Sequence record: OL362041.1
DNA length: 64,000 nucleotides
Reading direction: 5' to 3' (one strand)
DNA from: Escherichia phage vB_Eco_OMNI12
Shown here: positions 17,495 through 34,465 of the stretch, piece by piece
Numbering within the stretch: position 1 is the first letter of the stretch
Layout: every line of letters starts with the position of its first letter
Program-made: the position numbers and the translations under genes
Notes under the pieces: model-generated
The model's input: the letters and a program-made list of their open reading frames with translations, nothing else
Databases searched by the model: none
Told to the model about the DNA's origin: nothing

Positions 17495-17522
17495 GATTGT
17501 CTCCTCTGAATTATATATCTAT

Positions 17523-18160: not shown

Positions 18161-18226
18161 ATTGTTCTCTATTCAATTGTTATTGGATGGACTTAGATTC
18201 ATTATACCACGTTTATACGTGAAGCA

Positions 18227-18625
18227 TTATACTCTATTACTGGAAGCCAGTTGTAGTTTTATCTGCTCAATATCATCAGGGTTATCGATGACTGAAAAGC
18301 GTATTTCTACTATCAAAGTATAATCATCATAAACCGGTATTACATTAACTGCTAATTTATCAATACGTGGCTCATAGTTTCTTACTGCGCTTTCGATATT
18401 ACGCTCAACCGTGTCAGCAGTAAGAGGAGTCATATTCTCAAAAAGTTGGTCAGATAAATCGCATCCAAATTCAGGGTCAAACGGTCTTGAACCTTTTCTT
18501 GTTGTAATAATTCCTAAAAGACTATTTTTAATTGACCTTAATCCAAGTGATCTTGAAACGTCTTTGTTCCAATCCATTTTCATCTCTGGGTCAATATCAG
18601 AATAAAGCTTATTAATATTTGCCAT
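18227..18625 (-). CDS. 25: baseplate wedge protein gp25
   Basis: 132 aa as T4 gp25; start overlaps stop of gene 26. Confidence 0.85.
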   Translation of the reverse strand: MANINKLYSDIDPEMKMDWNKDVSRSLGLRSIKNSLLGIITTRKGSRPFDPEFGCDLSDQLFENMTPLTADTVERNIESAVRNYEPRIDKLAVNVIPVYDDYTLIVEIRFSVIDNPDDIEQIKLQLASSNRV

Positions 18626-19251
18626 TACAATAGCTCAAAGAATTCTTTGAGTCCTCTTATTACATGAGCGTGAGTTTTTCCACACTCTGGACATTTAATT
18701 GGAACAGCCAAATAAACAGTAGGCTTTAAAAGCATATCTTTTATAGCTACAATATCTGACTCTGTGATGATAGAATATAAATCTTCTAGTTCCTTTTCAT
18801 TTAAGTCTTCAACTGGAATGCTTTCCCCGTTAGCATGAATCGTTTCTATACATGATACTATCATGTGGGCTATATTTTTATCATCAAAAATTTTAGGGTA
18901 TCGGAATTTAATTTTAATGTCACCCAGTGTATACCAAAGGTCTTCTGGTGCATCTATTTGTGTATGTAATAGATTTATATGGGTTGGTATTTCAGTTCCG
19001 CAGGTGCACTTCCAGGAGTTTTCGTGATTAACTTCTCCAAGAGAATGCGCCCATAAATGAATCAACAATAGTTCTGATTCTTGGCGATTTAAATCTTTTG
19101 CATTTGTGCAGTCTTTGATTAGCTTTTTAACAATTACTTCTACAGAACCATTATTTTTGGCAGTAATAAGTTCTAGATATTCTTTAAGAGTAAATGCGCG
19201 ACAGTTGATTATTTTAGAACCAACTCTCACATCAAATTTGTATTCATACAT
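18625..19251 (-). CDS. 26: baseplate hub protein gp26
   Basis: 208 aa; divergent from gene 51 with shared late promoter region. Confidence 0.8.
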
Positions 19252-19272
19252 ATTTAGCTCCTTTATTTATCA

Positions 19273-19284
19273 TATTTATAAATA
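19273..19284. promoter_or_regulatory. overlapping divergent late promoters for genes 26 (minus) and 51 (plus)
   Basis: TATTTATAAATA contains TATAAATA on both strands. Confidence 0.6.
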
Positions 19285-19301
19285 GAATAAAAGGAGCATC
19301 T

Positions 19302-20051
19302 ATGGCAAACATTATTCGTTGTAAATTACCAGATGGTGTTCATCGTTTTAAACCATTTACGGTAGAAGATTATCGAGATTTTTTGTTAGTTCGAAACGAT
19401 ATAGAACATCGGTCACCACAAGAACAAAAAGAAATAATTACTGATTTAATTGATGATTATTTTGGAGACTATCCGAAGACTTGGCAACCATTTATATTTT
19501 TGCAGGTATTTGTAGGTTCAATAGGTAAAACTAAAGTACCAGTCACATTTGTATGTCCAAAATGTAAAAAAGAAAAGACAGTTCCATTTGAAATATATCA
19601 AAAAGAATTAAAGGAACCTATTTTTGATGTAGCTAATGTTAAAATTAAATTAAATTTTCCTTCTGAGTTTTATGAAAATAAAGCAAAGATGATTACTGAA
19701 AATATTCATTCTGTTCAAGTAGATGAAATGTGGTATGATTGGAAGGAAATTAGTGAATCGAGTCAAATAGAACTTGTTGACGCCATCGAGATAGAAACAT
19801 TAGAAAAAATTCTCGATGCAATGAATCCTATTAATTTAACATTGCACATGTCGTGTTGTGATAAGTACATTAAAAAATACACTGATATAGTAGATGTGTT
19901 TAAGCTATTAGTTAATCCAGATGAGATATTTACTTTTTATCAAATTAATCACACGCTTGTAAAAAGTAATTATAGCTTAAATTCAATAATGAAAATGATT
20001 CCTGCCGAGCGCGGATTCGTATTAAAACTGATTGAGAAGGATAAACAATAA
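19302..20051 (+). CDS. 51: baseplate hub assembly protein gp51
   Basis: 249 aa; late promoter TATAAATA 19277..19284. Confidence 0.8.
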
Positions 20052-21223
20052 TGAGTATGTTGCAACGCCCCGGATATCCAAATCTCAGCGTTAAATTATT
20101 TGAGAGTTATGACGCTTGGAGTAATAATAGATTTGTTGAATTAGCTGCTACTATTACCACATTAACTATGCGGGATTCTCTTTATGGTCGAAATGAAGGA
20201 ATGCTACAATTTTATGATTCTAAAAATATCCATACAAAAATGGATGGAAATGAAATAATTCAGATTTCTGTAGCTAATGCAAACGATATTAATAATGTTA
20301 AAACAAGAATTTATGGATGTAAGCATTTTTCTGTATCTGTAGATTCAAAAGGTGATAACATCATTGCTATTGAATTGGGAACTATTCATTCTATAGAAAA
20401 TCTTAAATTTGGTAGACCATTTTTCCCTGATGCAGGTGAATCTATAAAAGAAATGCTTGGTGTCATTTATCAAGACCGCACATTATTAACTCCAGCAATA
20501 AATGCTATAAATGCTTATGTTCCTGATATTCCATGGACTAGCACATTTGAAAACTATTTGTCATATGTAAGAGAAGTTGCTCTAGCGGTAGGAAGCGATA
20601 AGTTCGTATTTGTATGGCAAGACATCATGGGAGTTAACATGATGGACTATGATATGATGATAAATCAAGAACCATATCCAATGATTGTAGGTGAGCCAAC
20701 TTTAATAGGTCAATTCGTCCAAGAATTGAAATATCCATTAGCATATGATTTTGTTTGGTTGACTAAATCAAACCCGCATAAACGTGATCCAATGAAAAAT
20801 GCTACTATCTATGCTCATTCATTTTTAGATTCTTCATTACCAATGATTACTACAGGAAAGGGTGAAAACTCTATTGTAGTGTCAAGGTCAGGTGCTTATT
20901 CTGAAATGACTTATAGAAATGGATATGAAGAAGCTATTCGTCTTCAGACTATGGCGCAATATGACGGCTATGCTAAATGTTCTACTGTCGGTAATTTTAA
21001 CTTGACTCCTGGCGTTAAAATTATTTTTAATGATAGTAAAAACCAATTTAAAACAGAATTTTACGTTGATGAAGTTATTCACGAATTATCAAATAATAAT
21101 TCCGTAACTCATCTATATATGTTCACTAATGCAACGAAACTGGAAACAATCGACCCAGTTAAGGTTAAAAATGAATTTAAAACTGATACTACCACTGAAG
21201 AAAGTAGTTCTTCCGATAAGTAA
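20051..21223 (+). CDS. 27: baseplate hub protein gp27
   Basis: 390 aa; follows gene 51. Confidence 0.85.
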
Positions 21224-21704
21224 TAAAGAAGTTTCTATTCCTAAGATGGGTCTTAAACATTATAACATTTTAAAAGATGTTAAAGGTCCTGATGAAAATT
21301 TAAAGCTTCTTATTGATTCTATTTGTCCAAATTTATCACCGGCAGAAGTTGATTTCGTTTCTATTCATTTATTGGAATTTAATGGAAAGATTAAATCTCG
21401 TAAAGAAATAGATGGCTATACTTATGACATTAATGATGTTTATGTATGCCAAAGATTAGAATTTCAATACCAAGGAAATACATTTTATTTTAGACCTCCT
21501 GGAAAATTTGAACAATTTTTAACGGTGAGCGATATGTTATCTAAATGCTTGCTTAAGGTCAACGATGAAGTTAAAGAAATTAATTTTCTTGAGATGCCAG
21601 CATTCGTTTTAAAATGGGCAAATGATATTTTTACAACTTTAGCAATTCCTGGCCCTAATGGTCCAATAACTGGAATTGGCAATATTATTGGATTATTTGA
21701 ATGA
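21171..21704 (+). CDS. 28: baseplate hub distal subunit gp28
   Basis: ORF 21129..21704; internal Met start gives 177 aa as recalled for T4 gp28. Confidence 0.7.
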
Positions 21705-23473
21705 AAAAGCCACAAGAAATGCAAACGATGCGTAGAAAAGTTATTTCAGATAATAAACCAACACAGGAAGCGGCTAAATCCGCTTCCAATACTTTATCTG
21801 GACTTAATGACATTTCTACAAAATTGGATGATGCTCAAGCTGCTTCTGAATTAATAGCTCAAACCGTTGAAGAAAAATCGAATGAAATAATTGGAGCAAT
21901 TGACAATGTAGAAAGCGCAGTGAGTGATACTACTGCTGGTTCTGAGTTAATTGCTGAAACTGTCGAAATTGGCAATAATATTAATAAAGAAATCGGTGAA
22001 TCGCTCGGAAGTAAATTAGATAAATTAACGAGTTTACTCGAGCAAAAAATCCAGACAGCCGGAATTCAACAAACAGGAACTAGTTTAGCTACGGTTGAAA
22101 GCGCTATTCCTGTTAAAGTTGTTGAGGACGATACAGCTGAATCCGTGGGTCCTTTATTACCAGCTCCTGAAGCAGTTAATAATGATCCTGACGCTGATTT
22201 TTTCCCTGCCCCTCAACCAGTTGAACCTAAGCGAGAGTCACCGGAAGAAAAACAGAAAAAAGAAGCATTTAATTTAAAATTATCTCAAGCTTTAGATAAA
22301 TTAACAAAGACTGTTGATTTTGGATTTAAAAAATCCATTTCAATTACTGATAAAATATCAAGCATGCTATTTAAGTATACTGTCAGTGCTGCTATTGAAG
22401 CTGCTAAAATGGTTGCATTAATAATGGCTGTTGTTATTGGAATAGACCTACTGATGGTTCATTTTAAATATTGGTCAGATAAATTTTCAAAAGCCTGGGA
22501 TTTGTTTAGCACTGATTTTAAAACTTTTTCAAGCGAAACCGGAACTTGGGGTCCTTTATTACAGAGCATCTTTGAATCTATTGATGAAATTAAAAAGTTC
22601 TGGGAAGCGGGAGATTGGGGCGGTTTGACGGTAGCTATTGTAGAAGGGCTTGGAAAGGTTCTTTATAATTTAGGAGAACTTATTCAGCTTGGAATGGCTA
22701 AATTATCAGCAGCAATTCTTCGAGTTATTCCTGGTATGAAAGATACTGCTGACGAAGTAGAAGGAAGAGCACTGGAAAATTTCCAAAATTCTACTGGAGC
22801 ATCTCTCAATAAAGAAGACCAGGAAAAAGTTGCGAATTATCAAGATAAACGAATGAATGGAGACCTTGGTCCGATAGCAGAAGGACTAGACAAAATTGCG
22901 AACTGGAAAACTCGTGCATCTAACTGGATTCGTGGTGTTGATAATAAAGAAGCATTGACAACTGATGAAGAACGCGCAGCAGAAGAAGAAAAATTAAAGC
23001 AGCTTTCACCAGAAGAAAGAAAAAATGCTTTAATGAAGGCTAATGAAGCCCGTGCCGCGATGATTCGTTTTGAAAAATATGCTGATTCAGCTGATATGAG
23101 TAAAGACTCAACGGTTAAATCAGTTGAAGCTGCCTATGAAGACCTTAAAAAACGAATGGATGACCCGGATTTAAATAATTCACCGGCAGTTAAAAAAGAA
23201 CTTGCTGCTAGATTTTCTAAAATTGATGCTACTTATCAAGAGCTCAAGAAAAATCAGCCTAATGCCAAACCTCAAACTTCTGCTAAATCGCCAGAAGCAA
23301 AACAAGTCCAGGTAATAGAAAAGAACAAAGCACAGCAAGCTCCTATTCAACAAGCATCTCCTTCAATCAATAATACTAATAATGTTATTAAGAAAAATAC
23401 TGTCGTTCATAATATGACACCCGTAACGAGCACGACTGCTCCTGGTGTATTTGATGCGACTGGAGTTAATTAA
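21701..23473 (+). CDS. 29: baseplate hub / tail length determinator gp29
   Basis: 590 aa as T4 gp29; gene order 28-29-48-54. Confidence 0.85.
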   Translation: MKKPQEMQTMRRKVISDNKPTQEAAKSASNTLSGLNDISTKLDDAQAASELIAQTVEEKSNEIIGAIDNVESAVSDTTAGSELIAETVEIGNNINKEIGESLGSKLDKLTSLLEQKIQTAGIQQTGTSLATVESAIPVKVVEDDTAESVGPLLPAPEAVNNDPDADFFPAPQPVEPKRESPEEKQKKEAFNLKLSQALDKLTKTVDFGFKKSISITDKISSMLFKYTVSAAIEAAKMVALIMAVVIGIDLLMVHFKYWSDKFSKAWDLFSTDFKTFSSETGTWGPLLQSIFESIDEIKKFWEAGDWGGLTVAIVEGLGKVLYNLGELIQLGMAKLSAAILRVIPGMKDTADEVEGRALENFQNSTGASLNKEDQEKVANYQDKRMNGDLGPIAEGLDKIANWKTRASNWIRGVDNKEALTTDEERAAEEEKLKQLSPEERKNALMKANEARAAMIRFEKYADSADMSKDSTVKSVEAAYEDLKKRMDDPDLNNSPAVKKELAARFSKIDATYQELKKNQPNAKPQTSAKSPEAKQVQVIEKNKAQQAPIQQASPSINNTNNVIKKNTVVHNMTPVTSTTAPGVFDATGVN

Positions 23474-23481
23474 GGAATAAT

Positions 23482-24576
23482 ATGGCAATTGTTAAAGAAA
23501 TAACTGCTGATTTAATTAAAAAGTCCGGTGAGAAAATTTCAGCCGGACAGAGTACTAAATCAGAAGTAGCAACTAAAACATACACTGCCCAGTTTCCAAC
23601 TGGGCGTGCTAGTGGTAATGACACTACAGGGGACTTCCAGGTAACAGATCTATATAAGAATGGATTATTATTTACTGCATACAATATGTCATCTAGGGAT
23701 TCTGGAAGTCTTAGAACGATGAGATCTAACTACTCTTCTTCATCTTCGAGTATTTTACGTACAGCCAGAAACACTATCAGTAATACAGTATCAAAACTAT
23801 CAAATGGACTAATATCAGATAATAATTCAGGAACAATAAGTAAAGTTCCTGTTGCAAATATTCTTTTACCTAGATCTAAATCTGACGTCGATACGTCATC
23901 ACATAGATTTAATGATGTTCAAGATAGTCTTATTACAAAAGGTGGAGGTACTGCTACTGGTGTGCTAAGCAATATGGCTTCAACCGCAGTATTTGGAGCG
24001 CTGGAAAGTATAACACAAGGTATAATGGCTGATAATAATGAACAGATTTATACGACAGCCAGAAGCATGTACGGCGGTGCTGAAAATAGAACTAAAGTGT
24101 TCACTTGGGATTTGACTCCGCGCTCAACAGAAGATTTAATGGCTATTATTAATATCTATCAGTATTTTAACTATTTTTCTTACGGTGAAACTGGTAAATC
24201 TCAATATGCTGCTGAAATAAAAGGATATCTAGATGAGTGGTACCGTTCTACTTTTATTGAGCCGTTAACTCCAGAAGATGCAGTTAAAAATAAGACGTTA
24301 TTTGAGAAAATGACATCGAGTTTAACTAACGTTCTTGTAGTTTCAAACCCGACAATTTGGATGGTGAAAAACTTTGGTGCAACATCTAAGTTTGATGGAA
24401 AAACGGAAATATTCGGTCCATGTCAAATCCAGAGTATCAGATTTGATAAAACACCTAATGGTAACTTTAACGGATTAGCTATTGCTCCAAATCTCCCTAG
24501 TACATTTACTCTCGAGATTACTATGAGAGAAATTATCACGTTAAACCGTGCTTCTTTATATGCGGGGACTTTTTAA
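23482..24576 (+). CDS. 48: baseplate-tail tube junction protein gp48
   Basis: 364 aa as T4 gp48. Confidence 0.85.
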   Translation: MAIVKEITADLIKKSGEKISAGQSTKSEVATKTYTAQFPTGRASGNDTTGDFQVTDLYKNGLLFTAYNMSSRDSGSLRTMRSNYSSSSSSILRTARNTISNTVSKLSNGLISDNNSGTISKVPVANILLPRSKSDVDTSSHRFNDVQDSLITKGGGTATGVLSNMASTAVFGALESITQGIMADNNEQIYTTARSMYGGAENRTKVFTWDLTPRSTEDLMAIINIYQYFNYFSYGETGKSQYAAEIKGYLDEWYRSTFIEPLTPEDAVKNKTLFEKMTSSLTNVLVVSNPTIWMVKNFGATSKFDGKTEIFGPCQIQSIRFDKTPNGNFNGLAIAPNLPSTFTLEITMREIITLNRASLYAGTF

Positions 24577-25541
24577 TGTATTCTTTAGAGGAATTTAATA
24601 ATCAAGCAATAAACGCAGATTTCCAACGTAATAATATGTTCAGCTGTGTTTTTGCTACAACTCCATCAACTAAAAGCTCTTCGTTGATAAGTTCAATTAG
24701 CAACTTTTCTTATAATAACTTGGGCCTAAATTCAGATTGGTTAGGATTAACTCAAGGCGATATTAATCAGGGAATTACTACGCTAATTACAGCTGGCACA
24801 CAAAAACTGATAAGAAAATCAGGGGTTAGTAAATATCTTATTGGTGCCATGAGTCAACGTACAGTTCAAAGTTTATTAGGCTCATTTACAGTTGGTACAT
24901 ATTTAATTGACTTCTTTAACATGGCATATAACTCATCTGGATTGATGATATACTCTGTAAAAATGCCAGAGAATAGATTATCCTATGAAACTGACTGGAA
25001 CTATAATTCTCCTAATATTCGTATAACTGGGAGAGAATTAGACCCTTTGGTTATTTCATTCAGAATGGATTCAGAAGCTTGTAACTATCGTGCAATGCAA
25101 GACTGGGTTAACGCTGTTCAAGACCCAGTAACTGGATTGCGTGCTTTGCCGCAAGATGTCGAGGCTGATATTCAGGTTAATCTTCATTCTCGCAATGGAT
25201 TACCACATACTGCGGTGATGTTCACTGGATGCATTCCAGTGTCCGTAAGCGCTCCTGAGTTATCATATGATGGAGATAACCAAATAACTACATTTGATGT
25301 TACTTTTGCGTATAGAGTCATGCAGGCTGGAGCAGTTGATAGACAAGCTGCGCTTGAATGGCTTGAATCTGCTGCTATAAATGGTATTCAAAGCGTTCTC
25401 GGAAATAGTGGAGGTGTCACTGGACTATCTAATTCGCTTTCACGACTTAGTAGATTAGGGGGAACTGCAGGAAGCATTTCAAATATTAACACTATGACAG
25501 GAATTGTCAATTCGCAAAGTAAAATATTAGGAGCAATATAA
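24576..25541 (+). CDS. 54: baseplate-tail tube initiator gp54
   Basis: 321 aa; followed by bidirectional hairpin terminator. Confidence 0.85.
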   Translation: MYSLEEFNNQAINADFQRNNMFSCVFATTPSTKSSSLISSISNFSYNNLGLNSDWLGLTQGDINQGITTLITAGTQKLIRKSGVSKYLIGAMSQRTVQSLLGSFTVGTYLIDFFNMAYNSSGLMIYSVKMPENRLSYETDWNYNSPNIRITGRELDPLVISFRMDSEACNYRAMQDWVNAVQDPVTGLRALPQDVEADIQVNLHSRNGLPHTAVMFTGCIPVSVSAPELSYDGDNQITTFDVTFAYRVMQAGAVDRQAALEWLESAAINGIQSVLGNSGGVTGLSNSLSRLSRLGGTAGSISNINTMTGIVNSQSKILGAI

Positions 25542-25544
25542 CAA

Positions 25545-25564
25545 TGGGGACCTTTCGGTCCCCA
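25545..25564. terminator. bidirectional terminator between gene 54 and the minus-strand block
   Basis: TGGGGACC-TTTC-GGTCCCCA followed by T-run. Confidence 0.7.
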
Positions 25565-25569
25565 TATTT

Positions 25570-25860
25570 TTATTTACGGAATGAAATGAAAGCAGCAACT
25601 GAAGCAACTAAACTGTCTTCAATATAAACTTCAATTTTTACCGGAGCTTCTGACTCAAATTTACCTGTTACTACACCCTGAAAAATACTTTCAGTCTGTT
25701 CTGGCTTTGAAAAATTTTCAGAAGGAAAAATTCCGAACTTTTTATCTGTTCCAAAAATTTTGATAAATTCATCGTAAACTGCTTCATTAAAAGCATTATC
25801 AGCAGGAATAACGCCTTCAACTACAAGTTCTTGACCTAAAAAGCGCAAAGAAGATTTCAT
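25570..25860 (-). CDS. hypothetical protein downstream of alt
   Basis: 96 aa ORF; its SD lies inside the repeated hairpin element at 25868..25921. Confidence 0.5.
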   Translation of the reverse strand: MKSSLRFLGQELVVEGVIPADNAFNEAVYDEFIKIFGTDKKFGIFPSENFSKPEQTESIFQGVVTGKFESEAPVKIEVYIEDSLVASVAAFISFRK

Positions 25861-25867
25861 TTTGTGT

Positions 25868-25921
25868 TCCTCATGTTATGTCAGTAAGACTACTATAACA
25901 CAACACGAGGGACTTGTAAAC
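25868..25921 (-). repeat. 54-bp repeated hairpin element containing the SD of the downstream gene (copy A)
   Basis: 53/54 identical to 41815..41868; 12-bp stem with SD GAGG in the 3' arm. Confidence 0.8.
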
Positions 25922-27978
25922 TACATCTTGAACTTTTTAGACATTCCGTTGATGTTAACCAAAGAAGCTAAGATTTGAGAAACTTCGTTTTCCTCTTCTT
26001 TTGATTCTTCTACAAGGAATTGATTAAATCCAGCCATTGGACGAACTTCACCAGTTTCCATTAGATGGTCGCCATCATATACTGATTCTTCTAATTGTTC
26101 AGAAGGAGGAACGATTGTACCTTCGATTAGATACTTGTTATAAGCAGTTTCTTTCATAAAGTAAGTACTTACTTTATTAATCTTCAGTAAAATTCCACGT
26201 GGTAGAATAACTTCAGCTTCTGACGGAAATCCTGATAAATGACCCGGAACGATAACTTTGATTCGCTCAGCTCCTTTAATTACCATACCCACGCTAGTTT
26301 CAGCATCTTCATTAGCATATGTAGAATGACTACCCATATGCATCAAATCTTCTGCATCAACGGAACCTTCTCCTTCACCAGAAAATACTGCGCCGGAATC
26401 ATCTAGAGCCATATAGTTTTTACCATGCTCACCGAAGATATTTGGTTTAAGCGATGTGGATACGAAGTTCTTGAAATAGAACATTTTATTTTCAATGTTA
26501 TGACGCAAAGTTTTAAAGGTAACTTCTTGTCCACGGTAAAGTGTAGTTCCTGGAGGAAGAACTGAACCTTTAGCGAATGCAGAATCAAGCGTCTCAATAT
26601 GTTTAATAGCTCGTTCCATATATTCTTCACGGGTAGAATCTGGTTTACCCAAAAGGAACGAGTTCATTTCAACATATGAATCTGCACAATAATCTTCAAT
26701 TACATCAGATTCAGCTTGAGTTAATCCTTTTGGAGTTACTTCAGTGCTTGCGTATTCATATGCCTGAGCAGCAGATTCATTAATCAATTTATAAATGCCA
26801 TTCATGACAAATTGAATAATAGCTGTCTTTTCATCTGGCGTAGCTTTAGAACCTTTAACCAAATCATTGATAATTTTCTTAATAACATCAAAGCTATTAG
26901 AAATATTAATATCAGCAAGATCGCTTAAAATTTTATCAGTCTTATAATCAAAGAATTCTTTATTCTTTAAATATTCTTGAGAACCTTGATATGTTATATC
27001 GCTCTGTAACTTGATAGATGGATCACGTAAACGTGCATGGGCTAATGCAATATGATTTCGGAAGCTTTCGAGTTCATAATCACTAGATTTAAAACGAGAA
27101 GCGCTTCTCATACCGCCTATAGCTCCTTTGCTGAAGTTTGAACCAATTTGAATAACGCCAGAGTTCATTGGTCCTTCTGCTTTATACACCGGAACTTTAG
27201 ATTCAAACTCTTGATATTTCTTAGCAGCGAAGCTATCACCCTGAAGTGAAGCATCAACAGTAGAATATTGAGCTTGTGCTGCTAATCGACGACTAATTTT
27301 AGTTTTCTGAATAACAGCTTGGTCCGTGCGCTTATCATTTTCTAAAGCAATAGAAGCAGCAACAGCAACAGCTTTAGGAACAGCATTACCTGTTTTAACA
27401 TCTACATAAACATCACCAACCTTTGATTCAACTTTTGTGAATAACTCAGTTGAAATAGGAGGTACACCTGGAATGTCTTCTAAATTGGCATTTTTACGAT
27501 AAACCATAATATATGCGTACTTTTTATCATAATCCCAGATTTCCTTTAAAAGAACATATCGACCTGCTCCTTTAGTACGTACTAAACGGTCAGCAATAAC
27601 TTGCATTTGACGAGCAGCGCCATTTGTTTTACTCTTTAGTACGCGGAATAAGCATGCATCAATTTTATACTGTTTCATTGTTTGAAGAGCAGTATCAAAA
27701 ACAGCGTTAATGACGCCAATTGGATTTCCACCCAAGTTTCTAAGTTTAACCAGTGATAATTTCTCGTTGACACCTATCATTACGATATGCATCATTTTAT
27801 CGCCTGGCTTAACGTTTTTATTCGTATCACCACCAGAGGTGTATGTACAAAATCTAAATCCAGGAAGCACGCTTTCTTCGCCGGCTTGAATAGCAAAAAT
27901 TTGTGGTATTTTATGCTTAGGATTTAAGTTAACAACCGGCGCCGAAGCGCCGTCAAATAATTCTGTAATAAGTTCCAT
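25921..27978 (-). CDS. alt: Alt-like ADP-ribosyltransferase, paralog 1
   Basis: 685 aa; N-terminus MELITELFD; C-terminal R-S-E type ART motifs (TLYRGQ ... FVSTSL ... EAEVILPRG). Confidence 0.85.
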   Translation of the reverse strand: MELITELFDGASAPVVNLNPKHKIPQIFAIQAGEESVLPGFRFCTYTSGGDTNKNVKPGDKMMHIVMIGVNEKLSLVKLRNLGGNPIGVINAVFDTALQTMKQYKIDACLFRVLKSKTNGAARQMQVIADRLVRTKGAGRYVLLKEIWDYDKKYAYIMVYRKNANLEDIPGVPPISTELFTKVESKVGDVYVDVKTGNAVPKAVAVAASIALENDKRTDQAVIQKTKISRRLAAQAQYSTVDASLQGDSFAAKKYQEFESKVPVYKAEGPMNSGVIQIGSNFSKGAIGGMRSASRFKSSDYELESFRNHIALAHARLRDPSIKLQSDITYQGSQEYLKNKEFFDYKTDKILSDLADINISNSFDVIKKIINDLVKGSKATPDEKTAIIQFVMNGIYKLINESAAQAYEYASTEVTPKGLTQAESDVIEDYCADSYVEMNSFLLGKPDSTREEYMERAIKHIETLDSAFAKGSVLPPGTTLYRGQEVTFKTLRHNIENKMFYFKNFVSTSLKPNIFGEHGKNYMALDDSGAVFSGEGEGSVDAEDLMHMGSHSTYANEDAETSVGMVIKGAERIKVIVPGHLSGFPSEAEVILPRGILLKINKVSTYFMKETAYNKYLIEGTIVPPSEQLEESVYDGDHLMETGEVRPMAGFNQFLVEESKEEENEVSQILASLVNINGMSKKFKM

Positions 27979-27981
27979 GAT

Positions 27982-30039
27982 TTATCCTTGAACGAACTTG
28001 TAAGGCATGTTTGCAATATCTATACAAGACGCAATAATTCCAAGAGATGATTCTACTTTCTGTTTAACATTTGATGAAACAAATGATGCAAAATCAACTC
28101 TGTCTTCTATTTCAATATCACCTGTCATTGTAACTACTTCGCCGGTTTCCATTAGACGGTCACCGTCATAAATTACCGATTCGGTGAGTTCTTCTGTGGT
28201 CATAACTTCAGCTTGAATAAGCTTGTTGTTAGTTTTAACTGTTCCATCATTGTAAGATGCATCGGTTATTTTATTAACTTTGACCATTAATCCACGTGGC
28301 AAAATGACTTCCATTTCATTTGAAGGTGCTAAACTTCCACCTGGTAAAACAACATTGACTTTATCAGCCCCAGTAATAACCCATCCAATTCCAACTAAAT
28401 TATCGCTAGAATTTACTAGTCCTTCATCAGTTTTATCAATAGAAACACTTAAACGCTTTTCGTCTGGTAAAACACCCACAGATGAATCAGTCATCCAGGT
28501 ACCAAAAATATTTGGATATAATGATGTTGACACAAAATTTCTAAAATAAAAAACTCGATTTTTTACCAGTGCTTCATATATTGAAGGTAACATTCGTTGT
28601 GAACGATACAAAGTAATACCTTTTGGTAATCGTTCACCATTTTTAAAGGCAGAATCTAAATTATCAATAGCTTTTTCTATATCAGATGCTGTCAAAATAC
28701 TTGTACGCTCATCTGGATTATATAATCCCAAAAGAGCGTTATTTATGTCTACATATCCTGAACTTACGTATTCACGAATTCCGCGTTTTTGTGCCGGTGT
28801 GTATTTAGATGAATCTTTATTTTCGACTATAGGATGTAGTGACCATCCAGCGGTAAGAGCATATCCACGCAATTCTCTTCGAATAATCTTTGTTTTTATT
28901 GCATTCCAAGAATTTTGTACTAACTCATTCGCAGCATCTTGATTTAAATGCGAATGCTTGTTAATGTTTCTTTCTAACCAAGCACCTTTATATTTTTCTA
29001 AAGTATCATCAACTATAGAAGCAATAGTTTCTAAAGTTTTTATTGAAGTAATAGATTCTTTTCGTAATCTTTCTAAAGCTTTATTTTTTATTTCTGCATT
29101 AACATCAGATTCTTTATCTTCAGGAATTATAGAAGCTTCTCTGAATGCCATTCCAGCTGTAACACTACTAAGAGCATTCTCTAATGCAAATCCTGAAGTA
29201 GAAATAACAGTTAATTCATTAGCGTCAGAAATTAAAGGAGCGTCAGCAGGTTTATTTAATTCTGCTGCTGAAGCCTCAAATTTTTGAAACATCGGCGTTT
29301 CAAATCTAGAAGATTCCAATGATTGACTTTGCGCAATTGCTCTACGGGAAATTTTAACTTTAACGATTACAGCTTGGTCAGAACGTTTATCATTTTCTTG
29401 TGCAATAGATGCTGCAATTGCCTCATTTTTGGTTACTTGAACTCCGGTATCTTTATTGATATAAACATCACCGACCTTCGATTCAACTTTAGTAAAGAGC
29501 TCGGTACTAATTTCCGGAACTCCTGGAATGTCTTCTAGTGATACATTTTTGCGATGTATAAGAATATATGCATACTTTTTATCATAATCCCAGAGTTCCT
29601 TAAGAAGGACGTATCTGCCACCTGAACGACTACGGATAAGTCTATCAGCAATAACTTGAATTTGTCGAGCTTGACCAGCGGTTTTAGACTTAAGAATACG
29701 AAGCATACAAGCATCAATTTTATACTGACGCATTGTTTGCATTGCAACAGTAAAAACTGAATTGATATAATTAATTGGGCTTGGACCAAGACCTTTTAAT
29801 TTAGCAATTGAACCTTTAGCAGTTAATGTAAAAGGAACAATATGCATCATTTTATCGCCCATCTTTAAATCGCGATTAGTATCACCTCCAGATGTATAGG
29901 TACATAAACGAAAACCTGGTTGTTCAATTGCATCATCAACATGAACTGAAAAAATTTGTGGTATTTTCTTCTTTGGATTTAAGTTTGTAATCGGAAGAGT
30001 AGTATCTTCGTCAAATAATTCTGTAATAAGTTCCATCAT
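27982..30039 (-). CDS. alt: Alt-like ADP-ribosyltransferase, paralog 2
   Basis: 685 aa; same N-terminus; ART motifs (TLYRSQ ... FVSTSL ... EMEVILPRG); late promoter upstream. Confidence 0.85.
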   Translation of the reverse strand: MMELITELFDEDTTLPITNLNPKKKIPQIFSVHVDDAIEQPGFRLCTYTSGGDTNRDLKMGDKMMHIVPFTLTAKGSIAKLKGLGPSPINYINSVFTVAMQTMRQYKIDACMLRILKSKTAGQARQIQVIADRLIRSRSGGRYVLLKELWDYDKKYAYILIHRKNVSLEDIPGVPEISTELFTKVESKVGDVYINKDTGVQVTKNEAIAASIAQENDKRSDQAVIVKVKISRRAIAQSQSLESSRFETPMFQKFEASAAELNKPADAPLISDANELTVISTSGFALENALSSVTAGMAFREASIIPEDKESDVNAEIKNKALERLRKESITSIKTLETIASIVDDTLEKYKGAWLERNINKHSHLNQDAANELVQNSWNAIKTKIIRRELRGYALTAGWSLHPIVENKDSSKYTPAQKRGIREYVSSGYVDINNALLGLYNPDERTSILTASDIEKAIDNLDSAFKNGERLPKGITLYRSQRMLPSIYEALVKNRVFYFRNFVSTSLYPNIFGTWMTDSSVGVLPDEKRLSVSIDKTDEGLVNSSDNLVGIGWVITGADKVNVVLPGGSLAPSNEMEVILPRGLMVKVNKITDASYNDGTVKTNNKLIQAEVMTTEELTESVIYDGDRLMETGEVVTMTGDIEIEDRVDFASFVSSNVKQKVESSLGIIASCIDIANMPYKFVQG

Positions 30040-30059
30040 AGCCTCTCTAGTGTTTATTC

Positions 30060-30067
30060 TATTTATA
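30060..30067 (-). promoter_or_regulatory. late promoter TATAAATA (minus strand) upstream of alt paralog 2
   Basis: TATTTATA on plus strand 21 nt from the alt start. Confidence 0.6.
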
Positions 30068-30073
30068 AAATTA

Positions 30074-30090
30074 AAGGCCCGAAGGCCTTT
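30074..30090 (-). terminator. terminator hairpin downstream of gene 30 block
   Basis: AAAGGCC-CGAA-GGCCTTT. Confidence 0.55.
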
Positions 30091-30277
30091 AGTAATCTAG
30101 TGGTAAGAGAGTACGATATATTTCAAACTTTGGTCCTTTTTCATAGGCATCAAATGTTTCTGTAAATTTATTATAAGCGTATGCATCTACAAATTCGAGA
30201 ATGACTTGTGATACAGAAGTAGAAACATCTCCACCTTCTTTTTGAGCAATGACAATTGTTTCTAAGTAAGCTTTCAT
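30089..30277 (-). CDS. hypothetical small protein
   Basis: 62 aa ORF between gene 30 and alt, start overlaps stop of gene 30. Confidence 0.4.
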   Translation of the reverse strand: MKAYLETIVIAQKEGGDVSTSVSQVILEFVDAYAYNKFTETFDAYEKGPKFEIYRTLLPLDY

Positions 30278-31737
30278 AAACCAGTTACCTCATGAAAATC
30301 ACCAAATACATCCTCGAATGTATTAGCTTTAGTTTTATCTTCACGTAAACGAATCGCAATCGGAAGAAATAATTTAACGTAATCAGTGCGGCCATCAGAT
30401 TTTAACCAACCGTTGCATTCGCACTCTAGAATTTTTCCAATATAATAATTTTGGTTTTCCATAATGCGAGTACGGTCAAGTTCATGCGATTTTACACCGG
30501 CTTTATCTTTTAAGCCTGAACCAGCATTTACCTTAATTTTTCCACACTCTGATTCAAGAATAAATCCACCCGCTTTAGTAGGGTCTTTACGGTGAGGATA
30601 AATTCCTACAATTTTTAAATCAACATCAATTACTTCTTTAAATTTATAGAGATTTTTTGAACGAGCATTTTCCCACAATCCATCGGTATTTTTGAGAATA
30701 ATACCTTCAAGACCTTGGTCAATATACTTTTTATAAATTACCTTAGCTTCATCTAGGTTATTTACTACCTGGTTTTCAATTAAAATTACTTTATCATAAC
30801 CTGATGTCATTTGTTCTAGTTTAGAAAAACGTACATCATATTTCAAACGAAATGCAGGAAGACCGTATATTTCTACCAACGGGACATAATCCCAGACCTG
30901 AAACTTCATGCATTGAGCTTCTTTTTCAGAAATGGTTCCCTTTAAAGATTTATTGGCGATGCCATTAGATGCAGTACGTGATTCAGCTACTTCGGCGAAT
31001 TCTTTAGCTTTACTAATTTCAGGATAAGCATCAAAAAGAAAATCTAGGCCTTCTGGCTCCTTTTCAACTTGCTCATGGTATACCAATTCGCCATCAATTA
31101 ACACACCTTCTGGATGAATCTGGCGGGCTTCAGCAGTCATTTTGATTAACTCTTCCTTAAGAAGATCTAATCCTAGATATTCATTACCAGCTCGTGATAA
31201 AAGACGAACATCATCTAATTCATCACCTCTGACTTCAGCAAAACACCGAGCTCCATCAGCTTTTAACTGGGCAAAGGCTGGAAATTTGATATTCTTACTA
31301 ATGCCTTTTTCATCATAAGAACTTGCAAGCATTTGAGGTTGTTCAGGAATTAAACCTGGCCAAACTTTGTTTGCAATAGATACTGAAGCACCGCATTCAA
31401 GGTCTCGCATCATCACCCGACGCAAAACTTCAACATCATCTTTTTTACCGTCAGTAATATATCCAGTTAATTCCTCAATTGCCGCATTTCCAGTCAATTT
31501 CCGAGTAGCTAACGTGAATTCAATGAAGTCAAGCATATCGGTAAGAGTCAACATTCCAAAACTCTGGGTAGCAATACCCGGTTTAGGCCATTTCTTGATA
31601 TAATACTGTAACCCACGAGAATAAGTCAGACGATATACTCGTTTAAGCAATTCATTATCTTTATTCTTTTCAAGAATTGCTTGCTTCTGCTTAGTTGAAC
31701 CAATAGATGCTATTTCGCTCAGAATTTTAAGAATCAT
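30274..31737 (-). CDS. 30: ATP-dependent DNA ligase
   Basis: 487 aa as T4 ligase; adenylation motif KADG (AQLKADGARC). Confidence 0.9.
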   Translation of the reverse strand: MILKILSEIASIGSTKQKQAILEKNKDNELLKRVYRLTYSRGLQYYIKKWPKPGIATQSFGMLTLTDMLDFIEFTLATRKLTGNAAIEELTGYITDGKKDDVEVLRRVMMRDLECGASVSIANKVWPGLIPEQPQMLASSYDEKGISKNIKFPAFAQLKADGARCFAEVRGDELDDVRLLSRAGNEYLGLDLLKEELIKMTAEARQIHPEGVLIDGELVYHEQVEKEPEGLDFLFDAYPEISKAKEFAEVAESRTASNGIANKSLKGTISEKEAQCMKFQVWDYVPLVEIYGLPAFRLKYDVRFSKLEQMTSGYDKVILIENQVVNNLDEAKVIYKKYIDQGLEGIILKNTDGLWENARSKNLYKFKEVIDVDLKIVGIYPHRKDPTKAGGFILESECGKIKVNAGSGLKDKAGVKSHELDRTRIMENQNYYIGKILECECNGWLKSDGRTDYVKLFLPIAIRLREDKTKANTFEDVFGDFHEVTGL

Positions 31738-32003
31738 TGTTCATCCTTTAGAGTTTGGTTTACAGCTCTATTATAAATCAATTCATCATTAAGCTCAGTC
31801 AAAGACCTGTGGTACGTGGTTCTAACTTTATTTCCTTGCATCCAGTGCTTGACGTAAATGAAACCTTGCTCTACACATTTTTTAAAAATTCGTTCGTCTT
31901 TTTGAGCTCGGAATTCTGGATTGCATCTAAAAAATTGATTTACGTGACCGTAATCACGTGTAGTATTACCTTCATTTTCATAAATAGTATGAACAACAAA
32001 CAT
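31734..32003 (-). CDS. hypothetical protein (30.1-like position)
   Basis: 89 aa ORF translationally coupled to neighbours. Confidence 0.5.
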   Translation of the reverse strand: MFVVHTIYENEGNTTRDYGHVNQFFRCNPEFRAQKDERIFKKCVEQGFIYVKHWMQGNKVRTTYHRSLTELNDELIYNRAVNQTLKDEQ

Positions 32004-32857
32004 TAGAATGCTCCTTGGAAAATATTATCACCACTACCACTAGTAAGTCTATTAAAATACCCTGCATCGCCAGGCTTAATATAACTCCATGTATGAAATG
32101 GATGCACATGATATGGATGTGTATAATATGGATGATATGGATTATAAGGATTAAATCCAGGAGTTCTCCAAGTAGTGTTCCAACGAAAAGAATCGTTTTT
32201 AATCATCTTTTCAATTACATCTTTTATAGCTTTTTCACTATCAAAACTTTCTTTATTTTCCTTTGGTGAAAAAAGCTTATTTTCTACATCATTCCATGTA
32301 TAAACTCGCTGTGCAGTTTTTGGAATACTGTCACGCTCCCCTCGAGCCATCCAATAAACTGGAACATTTAATATTTCACTCGCATGATCGCAGTGGTGAG
32401 CGAGATCGTCAATATAACAAATCACGTTATATTTCTCTTTTGCCTTTTTGAACAACTCTTCTTTTGAAGAATCATGACCACACATCATTACTTCTGAGAA
32501 GGCACCAGGAAAAAGAGCATTCAAATTAAATTGACGATTCAACAGAGCGTCAATAGAATCACCCAGCGCTGTAACAGCTACAAAATTATAATCTTCTTTT
32601 AATTTGTTAATTACACACAGGGCATCTTTATATGGAGACAAGTAACGAATAAAATCTGAACGATTGTATTTTTCAATTAACTTGACGCCAAGTTCTTCAT
32701 CACAATTAAAGAGTTTACCAGGAGAAATAAATTTCTCATCTTGGATCATTTTTAAAATATGTTCTAACGGAAGATTATATTTCTGAGCAAAATAAGGAAG
32801 GCCTGATTGCCAGCTTAAACATACTCCATCAATATCAGTTAAAATAGTAGGCTTCAT
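32003..32857 (-). CDS. HAD-superfamily phosphatase-like protein with His/Pro/Tyr-rich C-terminal tail
   Basis: 284 aa; N-terminal DxD motif (LTDIDGV); tail NPYNPYHPYYTHPYHVHPFHTW. Confidence 0.55.
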   Translation of the reverse strand: MKPTILTDIDGVCLSWQSGLPYFAQKYNLPLEHILKMIQDEKFISPGKLFNCDEELGVKLIEKYNRSDFIRYLSPYKDALCVINKLKEDYNFVAVTALGDSIDALLNRQFNLNALFPGAFSEVMMCGHDSSKEELFKKAKEKYNVICYIDDLAHHCDHASEILNVPVYWMARGERDSIPKTAQRVYTWNDVENKLFSPKENKESFDSEKAIKDVIEKMIKNDSFRWNTTWRTPGFNPYNPYHPYYTHPYHVHPFHTWSYIKPGDAGYFNRLTSGSGDNIFQGAF

Positions 32858-33318
32858 AGAGAGTCTCTTAATAGGTTTAACACATCAATAAATTCAGCTT
32901 CGGTTAATATTGTATCATCTTTTGTTAGACCACTAGCCATGCTGTGCTTCAAAACTTTTCCTTTCGAGGCGTGTAATGCATCACGAAAGCCCTTGTTTTG
33001 GATCGCTGCTTCAAAATATGCATTTGTGTATAATTCTTTCCATGCTGGGGAGTATCTTGAAAACGGAACTCCAAGCCAGAAGAGGGTCCCACGGTCCTGA
33101 GCTCTAGCATAAGACCTTCCAGCTTGTTGGGCGGCAAGCCCGGATAACCCAAATATACGACGTTGTTGTTCAGCATTTTTCACCTTGCATCCTTGGAAGA
33201 ATCCTTCAAGACCTCCGAATTGAATACCATCCATGACGAAAGGCCATTGGGCGAAATTACTTAATGCACACGATGGCCATCTAAAATTGCTTCTAATCTC
33301 TAACTCAGACATTTTCAA
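32854..33318 (-). CDS. NADAR / YbiA-like (DUF1768) domain protein
   Basis: 154 aa; motif LSNFAQWPFVMDG...EGFFQGCK resembles YbiA FSNFAAWP..DG...EHYFQAQK (from memory). Confidence 0.55.
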   Translation of the reverse strand: MKMSELEIRSNFRWPSCALSNFAQWPFVMDGIQFGGLEGFFQGCKVKNAEQQRRIFGLSGLAAQQAGRSYARAQDRGTLFWLGVPFSRYSPAWKELYTNAYFEAAIQNKGFRDALHASKGKVLKHSMASGLTKDDTILTEAEFIDVLNLLRDSL

Positions 33319-33511
33319 TACTTATAATTTCAACATCAGCCCAATGACCATAGCAAGGAAGACGAAATTCAACTGGCCAGTTAGGGTCCTTTTCTAATAT
33401 AATAGACTTAACTTGTGGTTCTTCATGTTCATCAGTATATGGATTTTTATCTGTTACTTTATATGTGACCTTAATGTACTGAATTCCAAAAATCTTATTA
33501 ATTATATTCAT
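33305..33511 (-). CDS. hypothetical protein
   Basis: 68 aa ORF in packed 30.x block. Confidence 0.4.
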   Translation of the reverse strand: MNIINKIFGIQYIKVTYKVTDKNPYTDEHEEPQVKSIILEKDPNWPVEFRLPCYGHWADVEIISIENV

Positions 33512-33705
33512 ACTAATTCCTTTAATCCGTAGATAGGAGATAATTCATCGCCCATACGAAGGTCTTCATTTCCATCTACCCAAGAAACAATATAAGCCTC
33601 TTTTATTTGAATACCACTCCATTTAAACGGAGGTAGAACCTTAGAAATTAATCCAGGTATACCAACTCCCTTTAATTCAACAGTTTGACCTAAAAAGAAT
33701 TTCAT
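33508..33705 (-). CDS. hypothetical protein
   Basis: 65 aa ORF in packed 30.x block. Confidence 0.4.
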   Translation of the reverse strand: MKFFLGQTVELKGVGIPGLISKVLPPFKWSGIQIKEAYIVSWVDGNEDLRMGDELSPIYGLKELV

Positions 33706-34410: not shown

Positions 34411-34465
34411 GATGTTTAATTGCGGTACAGGTATATAATATCATATCCTGTACCAAAGTAAACAA

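What the first reader, a model, noticed from the sequence alone, without database searches (positions are those of the whole stretch)
25868..25921. 54-bp conserved hairpin element burying the Shine-Dalgarno, repeated upstream of two unrelated genes (copy A)
The same 54 bp (53/54 identical) occur at 25868..25921, upstream of the 96-aa ORF after alt, and at 41815..41868, upstream of alc. On the minus-strand transcript each forms a 12-bp stem (CCUCGUGUUGUG / CAUAACAUGAGG, two G-U pairs) with an 18-nt loop, and the SD GAGG sits in the 3' arm a few nt before the AUG. Conservation across unrelated contexts implies selection, for example transcript-dependent translational gating as known for T4 e, soc and I-TevI, or a recombination hotspot.
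Basis: seen in the sequence. Interest (0 to 1): 0.6.

Follow-up and report, generated by a model that had tools for sequence, protein, structure and literature searches.

The report
Early promoter inside a ribosome-site-hiding hairpin
The repeated 54 bp is a complete T4-type early promoter plus ribosome-binding site; the hairpin can form only on RNA that reads in from upstream genes, so it probably limits alc and alt.-3 to early translation, and both ingredients of this design are already known in T4-like phages.

Summary
The 54 bp at 25868..25921 and 41815..41868 (minus strand) are 53/54 identical, with unrelated flanks and none expected by chance. The window is a Tequatrovirus (T4/T6-like). 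About 500 sequenced relatives carry both copies.

A 25-nt leader with SD GAGGA and the ATG follows.

The 5' arm of the hairpin lies in the promoter spacer. RNA started at this promoter therefore lacks it and leaves the SD open (about 2-3 kcal/mol to unpair). RNA reading in from the late alt promoter or the middle rnlA promoter buries the SD (about 10-13 kcal/mol).

Upstream of alc, the same design occurs with different sequences and compensatory changes in at least five other named genera. At alt.-3 it is specific to Tequatrovirus, as a copy of the alc cassette.

The most likely function is an early-only translation gate, the mirror image of T4 e/soc/I-TevI, built on a PeSL-type promoter cassette. 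The promoter assignment is strong. The gating is inferred, not shown. I rate it a new member of known kinds, of moderate interest.

The parts
25868..25921 (-). Copy A: early-promoter/leader/SD cassette upstream of alt.-3. Element position n corresponds to window coordinate 25922-n.
25916..25921 (-). Copy A -35 element GTTTAC (T4 early-promoter positions -36..-31). Its G is the last base of the alt paralogue's TAG stop codon.
   Evidence: T4 consensus from PMC1524935
25897..25910 (-). Copy A 5' arm of the hairpin (positions 12-25). It lies inside the 17-nt promoter spacer, upstream of the predicted start site.
25892..25897 (-). Copy A -10 hexamer TATAGT, preceded by TGt (extended -10).
25885..25885 (-). 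Copy A predicted transcription start (A37, i.e. G of GTTTAC + 36).
   Evidence: The rule was calibrated on T4 Pe133295. The start site itself is not mapped.
25869..25882 (-). Copy A 3' arm of the hairpin (positions 40-53), which includes GAGG of SD GAGGA (25868..25872).
25570..25860 (-). alt.-3 homologue (96 aa), the gene served by copy A.
41815..41868 (-). Copy B: the same cassette upstream of alc. Element position n corresponds to window coordinate 41869-n.
   Evidence: annotated 'predicted early promoter' in phage fPS-65
41844..41857 (-). Copy B 5' arm of the hairpin, in the promoter spacer.
41839..41844 (-). Copy B -10 hexamer TACAGT with TGt.
41832..41832 (-). Copy B predicted transcription start (A37).
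   Evidence: rule; not mapped
41816..41829 (-). Copy B 3' arm, including the SD (GAGGA at 41815..41819).
41304..41807 (-). alc. The real start is the second ATG at 41807, because the first ATG (41810) is ATA in phages UFV05 and REP3.
30060..30067 (-). Late promoter TATAAATA upstream of the two alt paralogues. It is the source of late read-through into copy A.
   Evidence: alt is late in T4 omics
43016..43048 (-). MotA-box middle promoter (TGCTT..TACTAT) upstream of rnlA. It is the source of middle-period read-through into copy B.
   Evidence: rnlA drops in motA-am infection
25544..25565 (.). Terminator-like GC hairpin between alt.-3 and gene 54, the likely end of the alt / alt.-3 transcripts. 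On the + strand it is followed by a T-rich tract (ATTTTTATTT). On the - strand, the direction of alt.-3, the tail is a weaker TGTTATATTG.
   Evidence: a terminator on the alt.-3 strand is annotated there in the G4498 and G28 records

Best explanation
Each copy is a self-contained early-gene expression cassette of the T4 type. It holds a sigma-70 early promoter (GTTTAC at -36..-31, a 17-nt GT-rich spacer, TGn plus -10, start at about A37), a 25-nt leader, SD GAGGA and the ATG. The first part of the spacer is complementary to the SD region. Two mRNA species therefore behave differently. RNA initiated at the cassette's own promoter in the first minutes of infection starts inside the loop-proximal part, lacks the 5' arm and has a free SD, so alc or alt.-3 is translated. 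RNA arriving from upstream contains both arms and folds into an 18-bp hairpin that buries the SD, so the downstream gene is transcribed but poorly translated. That upstream RNA comes from the late promoter of the alt genes or the MotA-dependent middle promoter of rnlA. The net effect is that Alc and Alt.-3 are made only from early-promoter transcripts. This is the time-reversed counterpart of the late-only gates of T4 e, soc, 49 and I-TevI. The alc copy is the ancestral one. The alt.-3 copy arose in the Tequatrovirus lineage by copying of the cassette (PeSL-type shuffling). Shown here: the repeat, the promoter match, the predicted structures, the covariation, and the promoter-like behaviour in published T4 RNA-seq. 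Inferred: the start site and the effect on translation.
For: Promoter:
- Both copies match TTTACA-17-TATAGT/TACAGT with TG.
- They also match the T4 early consensus of GTTTAC at -36..-31, a GT-rich stretch 5' of -12, and A at -11 and T at -7 (PMC1524935).
- The same pattern finds T4's documented Pe133295 and reproduces its start coordinate.
- Phage fPS-65 annotates the alc copy as an early promoter.

Published T4 RNA-seq (PMC6024815 Table S1):
- In motA-am infection alc rises 1.6x and alt.-3 rises 2.4x, while rnlA falls to 0.68x.
- In dksA/motA-am, read density jumps 6.5-fold from rnlA to alc.
- Density rises 1.6- to 3.4-fold from alt.-2 to alt.-3.

Published T4 omics class alc and alt.-3 as early RNA/early protein, rnlA as late protein and alt as late.

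Upstream later-class promoters are present: TATAAATA at 30067 and a MotA box at 43048.

Structure:
- The hairpin is -23/-25.8 kcal/mol, z -4 to -6.
- It is weaker on the antisense strand.
- Unpairing SD..AUG costs 10-13 kcal/mol in read-through RNA and 2-3 kcal/mol in RNA from A37.

Conservation:
- The rnlA-alc spacer of Gelderland-, Jiaoda-, Dhaka-, Winkler- and Karamvirus, plus two unassigned IMG/VR lineages, has GTTTACA followed by an anti-SD arm that pairs with the alc SD. The sequences differ between lineages.
- On a MAFFT alignment not fitted to the structure, 89% of cells are paired against 53% or less when slid. Four pairs change on both sides, one pair has five pair types, and 0/500 shuffles reach the score.
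- 16 of 26 distinct alc leaders cost 8-18 kcal/mol to open the SD in read-through RNA, against 0.5-5.6 from their own start.
- Within Tequatrovirus, six of the eight substitution types seen in the main stem keep pairing.

There is no U-tract after the stem in any lineage, so it is not an intrinsic terminator.
Against: - No start site is mapped and no translation has been measured. Gating rests on thermodynamic prediction.
- Mosigvirus, Lazarusvirus and several other lineages have an early promoter with a hairpin upstream of alc that does not cover the SD. SD sequestration is therefore not indispensable for alc.
- Most other early promoters in the window have a hairpin around the -10 that stops short of the SD. 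The inverted repeat may therefore have a more general role unrelated to translation.
- In wild-type T4 at 5 min, alc read density is 0.6x that of rnlA. This also fits partial termination or processing at the hairpin.
- The within-Tequatrovirus substitution count is small (8 types). The 3' arm hardly varies, as expected for an SD and leader whatever the structure.
Confidence: 0.68

Rival explanations
1. The stem-loop is mainly a transcription attenuator/terminator or a 3'-end stabiliser for the upstream alt and rnlA messages. This is the role proposed for PeSL stem-loops. SD pairing would then be a by-product.
For: Arbiol et al. 2010 showed terminator activity for one RB49 PeSL stem (PMC2839356). 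In wild-type T4 at 5 min, read density falls from rnlA (21/nt) to alc (13/nt). Most early promoters in the window have -10-centred hairpins that do not reach the SD.
Against: No U-tract follows the stem in either copy or in any of the other genera; the 3' flank is A-rich leader. In five named genera besides Tequatrovirus (plus two unassigned lineages) the 5' arm is specifically an anti-SD sequence (TCTCC/TCCTC) that co-varies with GGAG/GAGG. A mere terminator stem would not require that. The drop in read density is also expected if untranslated alc RNA decays faster.
Confidence: 0.15
2. The inverted repeat acts at the DNA level, for example as a cruciform or a protein-binding site that modulates promoter strength or early-promoter shut-off. 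The RNA hairpin would then be irrelevant.
For: Six of eight GTTTAC promoters in the window have an inverted repeat centred on the -10. That suggests a promoter-linked role. The mechanism of T4 early-promoter shut-off is unknown (PMC3014915).
Against: The Tequatrovirus stem has three G-U pairs, and tolerated variants add more (C13T, C15T). These would be A-C mismatches on the other strand. Accordingly the sense RNA is 6-8 kcal/mol more stable than the antisense RNA. The 3' arm coincides with the SD in many lineages, which a DNA-level role does not explain.
Confidence: 0.08
3. The hairpin is a translational-coupling device. On read-through RNA, ribosomes finishing alt or rnlA melt the stem and allow the downstream gene to be translated only when the upstream gene is.
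For: The upstream stop codon abuts or overlaps the -35 (TAG-TTTACA in copy A and in Dhaka-/Winklervirus), only about 7-11 nt before the 5' arm.
Against: By established ribosome geometry (my own knowledge, not tested here), a ribosome with the stop codon in its A site unwinds mRNA to about 5 nt past the stop. The stem starts beyond that in every lineage. alc and alt.-3 are early proteins, while rnlA protein and alt are late, which is the opposite of coupling.
Confidence: 0.05
4. The repeat is just a recent duplication or gene conversion of a promoter (a recombination product or hotspot), with no function for the hairpin beyond chance complementarity.
For: Copy A is a lineage-specific copy of the alc cassette. 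The same polymorphisms (G29A+G32A, G32A, T33A, C15T, G16A) occur at both loci. PeSL cassettes are known to be shuffled (PMC2839356, PMC4122927).
Against: The hairpin at alc is maintained by compensatory changes across genera whose Alc proteins are only 45-59% identical. Folding z-scores are -4 to -6. The permutation test for intragenomic conversion is not significant (p=0.086).
Confidence: 0.04

Closest known systems
T4 early promoters (Pe), the strong UP/-35/TGn/-10 sigma-70 promoters of T4 (Hinton 2010, PMC2988021; Nolan et al. 2006, PMC1524935)
   Same: GTTTAC at -36..-31, a 17-nt spacer, a GT-rich stretch with TGn, a TAnnnT -10, an intergenic position just upstream of an early gene, and MotA-independent expression of the downstream gene in T4 RNA-seq.
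   Different: Nothing essential differs. The point added here is that the spacer of this particular promoter doubles as an anti-SD arm.
PeSL (promoter-early stem-loop) cassettes of T4-type phages (Arbiol et al. 2010, PMC2839356; Comeau et al. 2014, PMC4122927)
   Same: A composite intergenic cassette running stop codon, -35, stem-loop between the -35 and -10 or overlapping the -10, SD, then ATG. It is repeated at several loci. Here the cassette has been copied from one locus (alc) to another (alt.-3).
   Different: PeSL stems were interpreted as terminators/attenuators and recombination sites, often GGGG..CCCC. Here the stem is long, has no U-tract, and its 3' arm is the SD itself. It lies next to conserved genes (alt, rnlA, alc) rather than ORFans in hyperplastic regions. 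No indel boundary was found at the element.
Transcript-specific translational gating of T4 e, soc, 49 and I-TevI (Uzan & Miller 2010, PMC3014915)
   Same: The SD is sequestered in a helix on long read-through transcripts. A promoter sits inside the helix, so the short transcript lacks the 5' arm and is translated.
   Different: In those cases the internal promoter is a late promoter and the gate makes the gene late-only. Here it is an early promoter, so the gate would make the gene early-only. There is no experimental test here.

Membership tests
T4-type early promoter (Pe) | -35 element GTTTAC at -36..-31 | tested here: met
   Positions 1-6 of both copies; consensus from PMC1524935.
T4-type early promoter (Pe) | 17 (+/-1) nt spacer, a GT-rich stretch with TGn, and a -10 TAnnnT with A at -11 and T at -7 | tested here: met
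   TTTACA-17-TATAGT / TACAGT with TG before the -10. The spacer ends GTGTTGTGT.
T4-type early promoter (Pe) | A-rich UP-like sequence around -40 to -55 | tested here: inconclusive
   Copy A has AAAAAG at about -54..-49 and copy B has AAAAAA further upstream. Both lie inside the upstream coding sequence, and no clear -42 block is present.
T4-type early promoter (Pe) | Immediate-early, MotA-independent transcription starting about 7 nt after the -10 | tested here: inconclusive
   Published T4 RNA-seq shows a MotA-independent step-up in reads across both elements, and both genes are classed early. No 5'-end mapping was available, so the start at A37 rests on the rule calibrated with Pe133295.
PeSL cassette | Intergenic composite of an early promoter, a stem-loop placed between the -35 and -10 or overlapping the -10, and then the SD and start codon | tested here: met
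   definition from PMC2839356 and PMC4122927.
PeSL cassette | Repeated at several loci and associated with cassette exchange, insertions or deletions | tested here: inconclusive
   There are two copies per genome in about 500 genomes. Copy A replaced a different promoter that is present in Karamvirus. However, the G28 duplication boundaries are not at the element, and the conversion test gave p=0.086.
PeSL cassette | The stem-loop works as a transcription terminator/attenuator | not testable with these tools
   The sequence lacks a U-tract after the stem, which argues against intrinsic termination. Function would need an assay.
Promoter-in-hairpin translational gate (T4 e / soc / 49 / I-TevI type) | SD and/or AUG sequestered in a helix on long transcripts | tested here: met
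   By prediction only: opening the SD costs 10-13 kcal/mol in read-through RNA. Covariation supports the helix.
Promoter-in-hairpin translational gate (T4 e / soc / 49 / I-TevI type) | An internal promoter gives a short transcript that lacks the 5' arm and has a free SD | tested here: met
   By prediction only: the 5' arm is at -25..-12, and RNA from A37 opens the SD at 2-3 kcal/mol.
Promoter-in-hairpin translational gate (T4 e / soc / 49 / I-TevI type) | The internal promoter is a late (gp55, TATAAATA) promoter | tested here: not met
   No TATAAATA in the element; it is an early sigma-70 promoter. It therefore works like this family but is not one of its members in the strict sense.
Promoter-in-hairpin translational gate (T4 e / soc / 49 / I-TevI type) | Measured repression of translation on long transcripts | not testable with these tools
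   Needs reporter fusions, toeprinting or ribosome profiling.
Intrinsic (Rho-independent) terminator | A GC-rich stem followed directly by a U-tract | tested here: not met
   The scan did not list it. The 3' flank is AACACAAAAUG or CUUUAUGAUG.
Any Rfam family | A match at the gathering score | tested here: not met
   0 matches in the whole window. A permissive scan of the copy A region gave only chance-level miRNA-precursor hits.

The most novel reading that the evidence does not exclude
An anti-Shine-Dalgarno sequence built into the spacer of an early promoter forms a conserved 'early-only' translation gate for the host-transcription inhibitor Alc in at least six named genera of T4-like phages. 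Alc (and, in Tequatrovirus, Alt.-3) is then silenced translationally while its gene continues to be transcribed by middle and late read-through. This would imply that late synthesis of Alc is harmful. It would also mean that promoter spacers in these phages are under RNA-level selection.
Probability: 0.5. Interest if true: 0.5.

Novelty: new member of a known kind. Interest (0 to 1): 0.38.

Why it matters
The result explains a striking repeat in a model phage without invoking anything exotic. It also shows that one short DNA segment is read twice: as a promoter spacer on DNA and as an anti-SD arm on RNA.

If the gate works as inferred, it adds the missing early-only counterpart to the classic late-only gates of T4 (e, soc, I-TevI). 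It gives a concrete reason why Alc synthesis stops although its gene lies downstream of middle and late transcription. It also suggests that many of the -10-centred hairpins in T4-type early promoters (PeSLs) deserve a look as translational elements and not only as terminators.

For annotation and for phage engineering, the cassette is a compact, portable early-expression unit that is insulated from upstream transcription.

Tried and rejected
- Rfam: no family matched, either at gathering score over the whole window or at E<=1 around copy A.
- Intrinsic terminator: rejected because there is no U-tract.
- Generic sigma-70 scan: on its own it is uninformative in this AT-rich DNA (25-26 sites found against 22-24 expected). 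A T4-specific GTTTAC pattern was therefore used and validated on T4 Pe133295.
- Literature: searches for promoter names (Pe136.3 and similar), for gene 63/alc promoter papers and for early-promoter SD hairpins found nothing specific. Miller et al. 2003 is not held, so I could not check whether these two promoters are in the published T4 list.
- IMG/VR with single proteins gave only close relatives. The metagenome scan gave 12 stretches, two of them unrelated phages with a similar promoter.
- One consensus structure over all lineages failed, because the Tequatrovirus, Dhakavirus and L072 stems are in a different register. Covariation was therefore counted on 11 sequences that share one register.
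- Concerted evolution: within-genome A-B distance was 2.25 against 2.56 between genomes, p=0.086, which is not significant.
- The G28 triple copy looked like evidence for a recombination hotspot. It is a plain tandem duplication that also includes the end of rnlA.

Full report
**1. The observation.** The 54-nt sequence GTTTACAAGTCCCTCGTGTTGTGTTATAGTAGTCTTACTGACATAACATGAGGA lies at 25868..25921 on the minus strand. It recurs at 41815..41868 with one difference (T27C). Similarity ends sharply at both edges, and no such match appears in 100 shuffles. The window is a Tequatrovirus, 98-100% identical to sequenced T4/T6-like phages.

Copy A sits between the TAG stop of the second of two 685-aa alt paralogues and the homologue of T4 alt.-3. 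Copy B sits between rnlA (gene 63) and alc. About 500 phage records contain the element, almost all at exactly two places. As sense RNA both copies fold into a stable hairpin: -23.0 and -25.8 kcal/mol, z -4.0 and -4.6. It has 14 bp (positions 12-25 with 40-53) plus a 4-bp upper stem.

The element begins with GTTTAC. Seventeen nt later comes TGt-TATAGT (copy A) or TGt-TACAGT (copy B). This matches the T4 early-promoter consensus described by Nolan et al. (PMC1524935): GTTTAC at -36..-31, a GT-rich stretch 5' of -12, and A at -11 and T at -7. A T4-specific pattern search finds eight such sites in the window, all on the minus strand and all just upstream of early genes.

One of these sites (38547) is the orthologue of the promoter that the T4 RefSeq record names Pe133295. 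Its G of GTTTAC maps to T4 133331, which is exactly 36 nt upstream of 133295. Applying the same rule puts the start of our cassettes at A37, window 25885 and 41832, or T4 123057 and 136300. One deposited genome (fPS-65) annotates the alc copy as a predicted early promoter.

**3. Independent support that the promoter is active, from published T4 data.** In Table S1 of Patterson-West et al. (PMC6024815), alc and alt.-3 rise in a motA-am infection (1.6x and 2.4x). That is how early genes behave (PMC2988021). The upstream gene rnlA falls to 0.68x, as expected for its MotA-box promoter, which I find at 43048.

Read density steps up 6.5-fold from rnlA to alc in the dksA/motA-am sample. It steps up 1.6- to 3.4-fold from alt.-2 to alt.-3 in all four of the six conditions I computed. 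Time-resolved omics (PMC9697503) class alc and alt.-3 as early RNA/early protein, rnlA as late protein and alt as late.

**4. Anatomy and the mechanism it implies.**
- The 5' arm (positions 12-25) lies wholly within the promoter spacer, at -25..-12.
- The -10 sits at the top of the helix.
- The predicted start, A37, is in the upper stem.
- The 3' arm (positions 40-53) is the leader and includes GAGG of the SD.

RNA initiated at the cassette's own promoter therefore cannot form the hairpin. RNA coming from upstream can. Computed cost to unpair SD..AUG is 10-13 kcal/mol in read-through RNA and 2-3 kcal/mol in RNA from A37.

Read-through sources exist. A late promoter TATAAATA at 30067 precedes the alt pair, and a MotA-box middle promoter precedes rnlA. 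The upstream stop codons end 0-4 nt before the -35. By standard ribosome geometry (my own knowledge), a terminating ribosome does not reach the stem. No U-tract follows the stem.

The simplest reading is a temporal gate. Alc and Alt.-3 are translated from early-promoter mRNA only, and stay silent on the middle and late RNAs that continue to traverse them. This is the logic established for T4 e, soc, 49 and I-TevI (PMC3014915), but with an early instead of a late internal promoter.

**5. Comparative test.** Alc homologues occur in more than 1100 phage records. In Gelderlandvirus, Jiaodavirus, Dhakavirus, Winklervirus and Karamvirus (Alc 45-59% identical), the rnlA-alc spacer is again about 60 nt. 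It again starts with GTTTACA directly followed by an anti-SD arm (TCTCC.. or TCCTC..), and that arm pairs with the alc SD (..GGAGA or ..GAGGA) downstream of the -10.

The arm sequences differ between genera with compensating changes:

| Lineage | 5' arm / 3' arm |
|---|---|
| Karamvirus | AUUUGGUU / AACCAAAU |
| Winklervirus | AUUUCGUU / AACGAAAU |
| Gelderlandvirus | CCGUUU / AAACGG |

IMG/VR contigs add two more lineages of unassigned genus (L059, L072) and more within-genus variants.

On a MAFFT alignment of 11 sequences that share one register, a 13-bp helix is 89% paired against 33-53% when slid. Four pairs change on both sides, and one of them shows five pair types. No shuffle out of 500 reaches the covariation score.

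Across 26 distinct alc leaders, 16 cost 8-18 kcal/mol to open the SD in read-through RNA, against 0.5-5.6 from their own start. Upstream-shuffled controls average 3-5. Gualtarvirus uses a different layout with the same logic, placing the 5' arm between the -10 and +1.

The design is not universal. Mosigvirus, Lazarusvirus and some other lineages have a promoter hairpin that leaves the SD free.

**6. Variation within Tequatrovirus.** Among 40-odd copies sampled, most polymorphism lies in the -10/loop region (T27C, G29A, G32A, T33A, C34T). In the main stem, six substitution types keep pairing (C13T, C15T, G16A, G40A, C42T, A46G) and two break it (C12A, G16T). Roughly 30% would be expected to keep pairing with a 2:1 transition bias. 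This is suggestive, but the numbers are small. The G-U pairs make the sense RNA 6-8 kcal/mol more stable than the antisense RNA. That favours an RNA-level role over a DNA-level one.

**7. Why two identical copies.** The alt -> alt.-3 junction of Karamvirus also carries a GTTTAC promoter. It has a different spacer and only a small spacer-internal hairpin, and the SD is free. The alc-type cassette at alt.-3 is therefore a Tequatrovirus-specific acquisition, a copy of the older alc cassette. This is the kind of cassette exchange described for PeSLs (PMC2839356, PMC4122927).

The same polymorphisms occur at both loci, which hints at continued exchange. However, within-genome A-B distance (2.25) is not significantly below the between-genome distance (2.56; p=0.086). 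The three copies in phage G28 come from a tandem duplication that also includes the end of rnlA, so its boundaries are not at the element.

**8. Relation to known things.** The element is a T4 early promoter. It fits the published PeSL definition: a promoter with a stem-loop overlapping the -10, followed by the SD and ATG. Six of the eight GTTTAC promoters in this window have a significant -10-centred hairpin (z -1.7 to -6), so the architecture is general. In three of them (the two copies and the 30.8 promoter at 34855) the stem reaches the SD.

What may be new is the reading of this stem as an early-only translational gate, and its covariation-backed conservation upstream of alc. I found no description of this in the held literature. 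I could not consult Miller et al. 2003 or the older T4 sequence papers.

**9. Verdict.** Confidence is high that this is an early-promoter/SD cassette, and moderate (about two in three) that the hairpin's main job is transcript-specific translational silencing. It is a new member of known kinds (PeSL cassette; promoter-in-hairpin gate), and interest is moderate.

Noticed in passing
window minus strand, GTTTAC at 54017, 50716, 50003, 38547, 34855, 34463: Six further T4-type early promoters. Four of them (50003, 38547, 34855, 34463) have a strongly significant hairpin centred on the -10 (z -2.5 to -5.3). 50716 is marginal (z -1.7) and 54017 is not significant. This is the general PeSL architecture.
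   Followed up: partly
window 34790..34855 (-), upstream of the gene 30.8 homologue: This early promoter also pairs its spacer (CCTTTGTG) with the downstream SD region (CACAAACAAAGGAG). It is a third candidate SD-sequestering promoter hairpin in the window, unrelated in sequence to the finding.
   Followed up: partly
window 25921..27978 and 27982..30039 (-): Two intact 685-aa alt paralogues lie in tandem. T4 itself has one alt plus the remnants alt.-1 and alt.-2 of the second copy.
   Followed up: no
L019 (phage vB_EcoM-G28) 16145..16549; also L052, L063, L064 (Gaprivervirus): G28 has a tandem duplication of the rnlA 3' end, the element and the 5' part of alc, giving three element copies. Gapriverviruses also carry an N-terminal alc fragment just upstream of alc. 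So the alc 5' region has partly duplicated in two lineages.
   Followed up: partly
L020 (JK45) and L021 (mobillu) 1185..1243, ndd/denB region: Another early promoter shares the -10-to-ATG part with copy A (TATAGTAGTCCTACTGA..ACATGAGGAACACAAAATG). It has a different spacer and a short GGTAGGA/TCCTAC stem that does not cover the SD. This points to modular reuse of promoter and leader halves.
   Followed up: partly
window 41805..41810 (-): alc has two in-frame ATGs. Phages UFV05 and REP3 have ATA at the first, so the second (41807), 7 nt from the SD, is the real start. The mechanical ORF call of 168 aa is one residue too long.
   Followed up: yes
L026 and L033 (metagenome contigs OCVV011316879.1, JAEEGL016213573.1): Two contigs with no detectable similarity to the element beyond the search pattern. 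They carry a very AT-rich GTTTACAAG-N15-TATAAT promoter preceded by a long T-run. This is the same promoter type, apparently from a different phage.
   Followed up: no
window 1..64000: No Rfam family reaches its gathering score anywhere in the 64 kb. That includes group I introns, so this phage appears to lack the nrdB intron that T4 has in this region.
   Followed up: no
window 30072..30091 (-) and 30060..30067 (-): A terminator-like GC hairpin (TAAAGGCCTTCGGGCCTTTA plus a T-run) is followed immediately by the late promoter TATAAATA upstream of alt. This is a compact terminator-promoter junction that separates the gene 30/alt.1 unit from the late alt unit.
   Followed up: no
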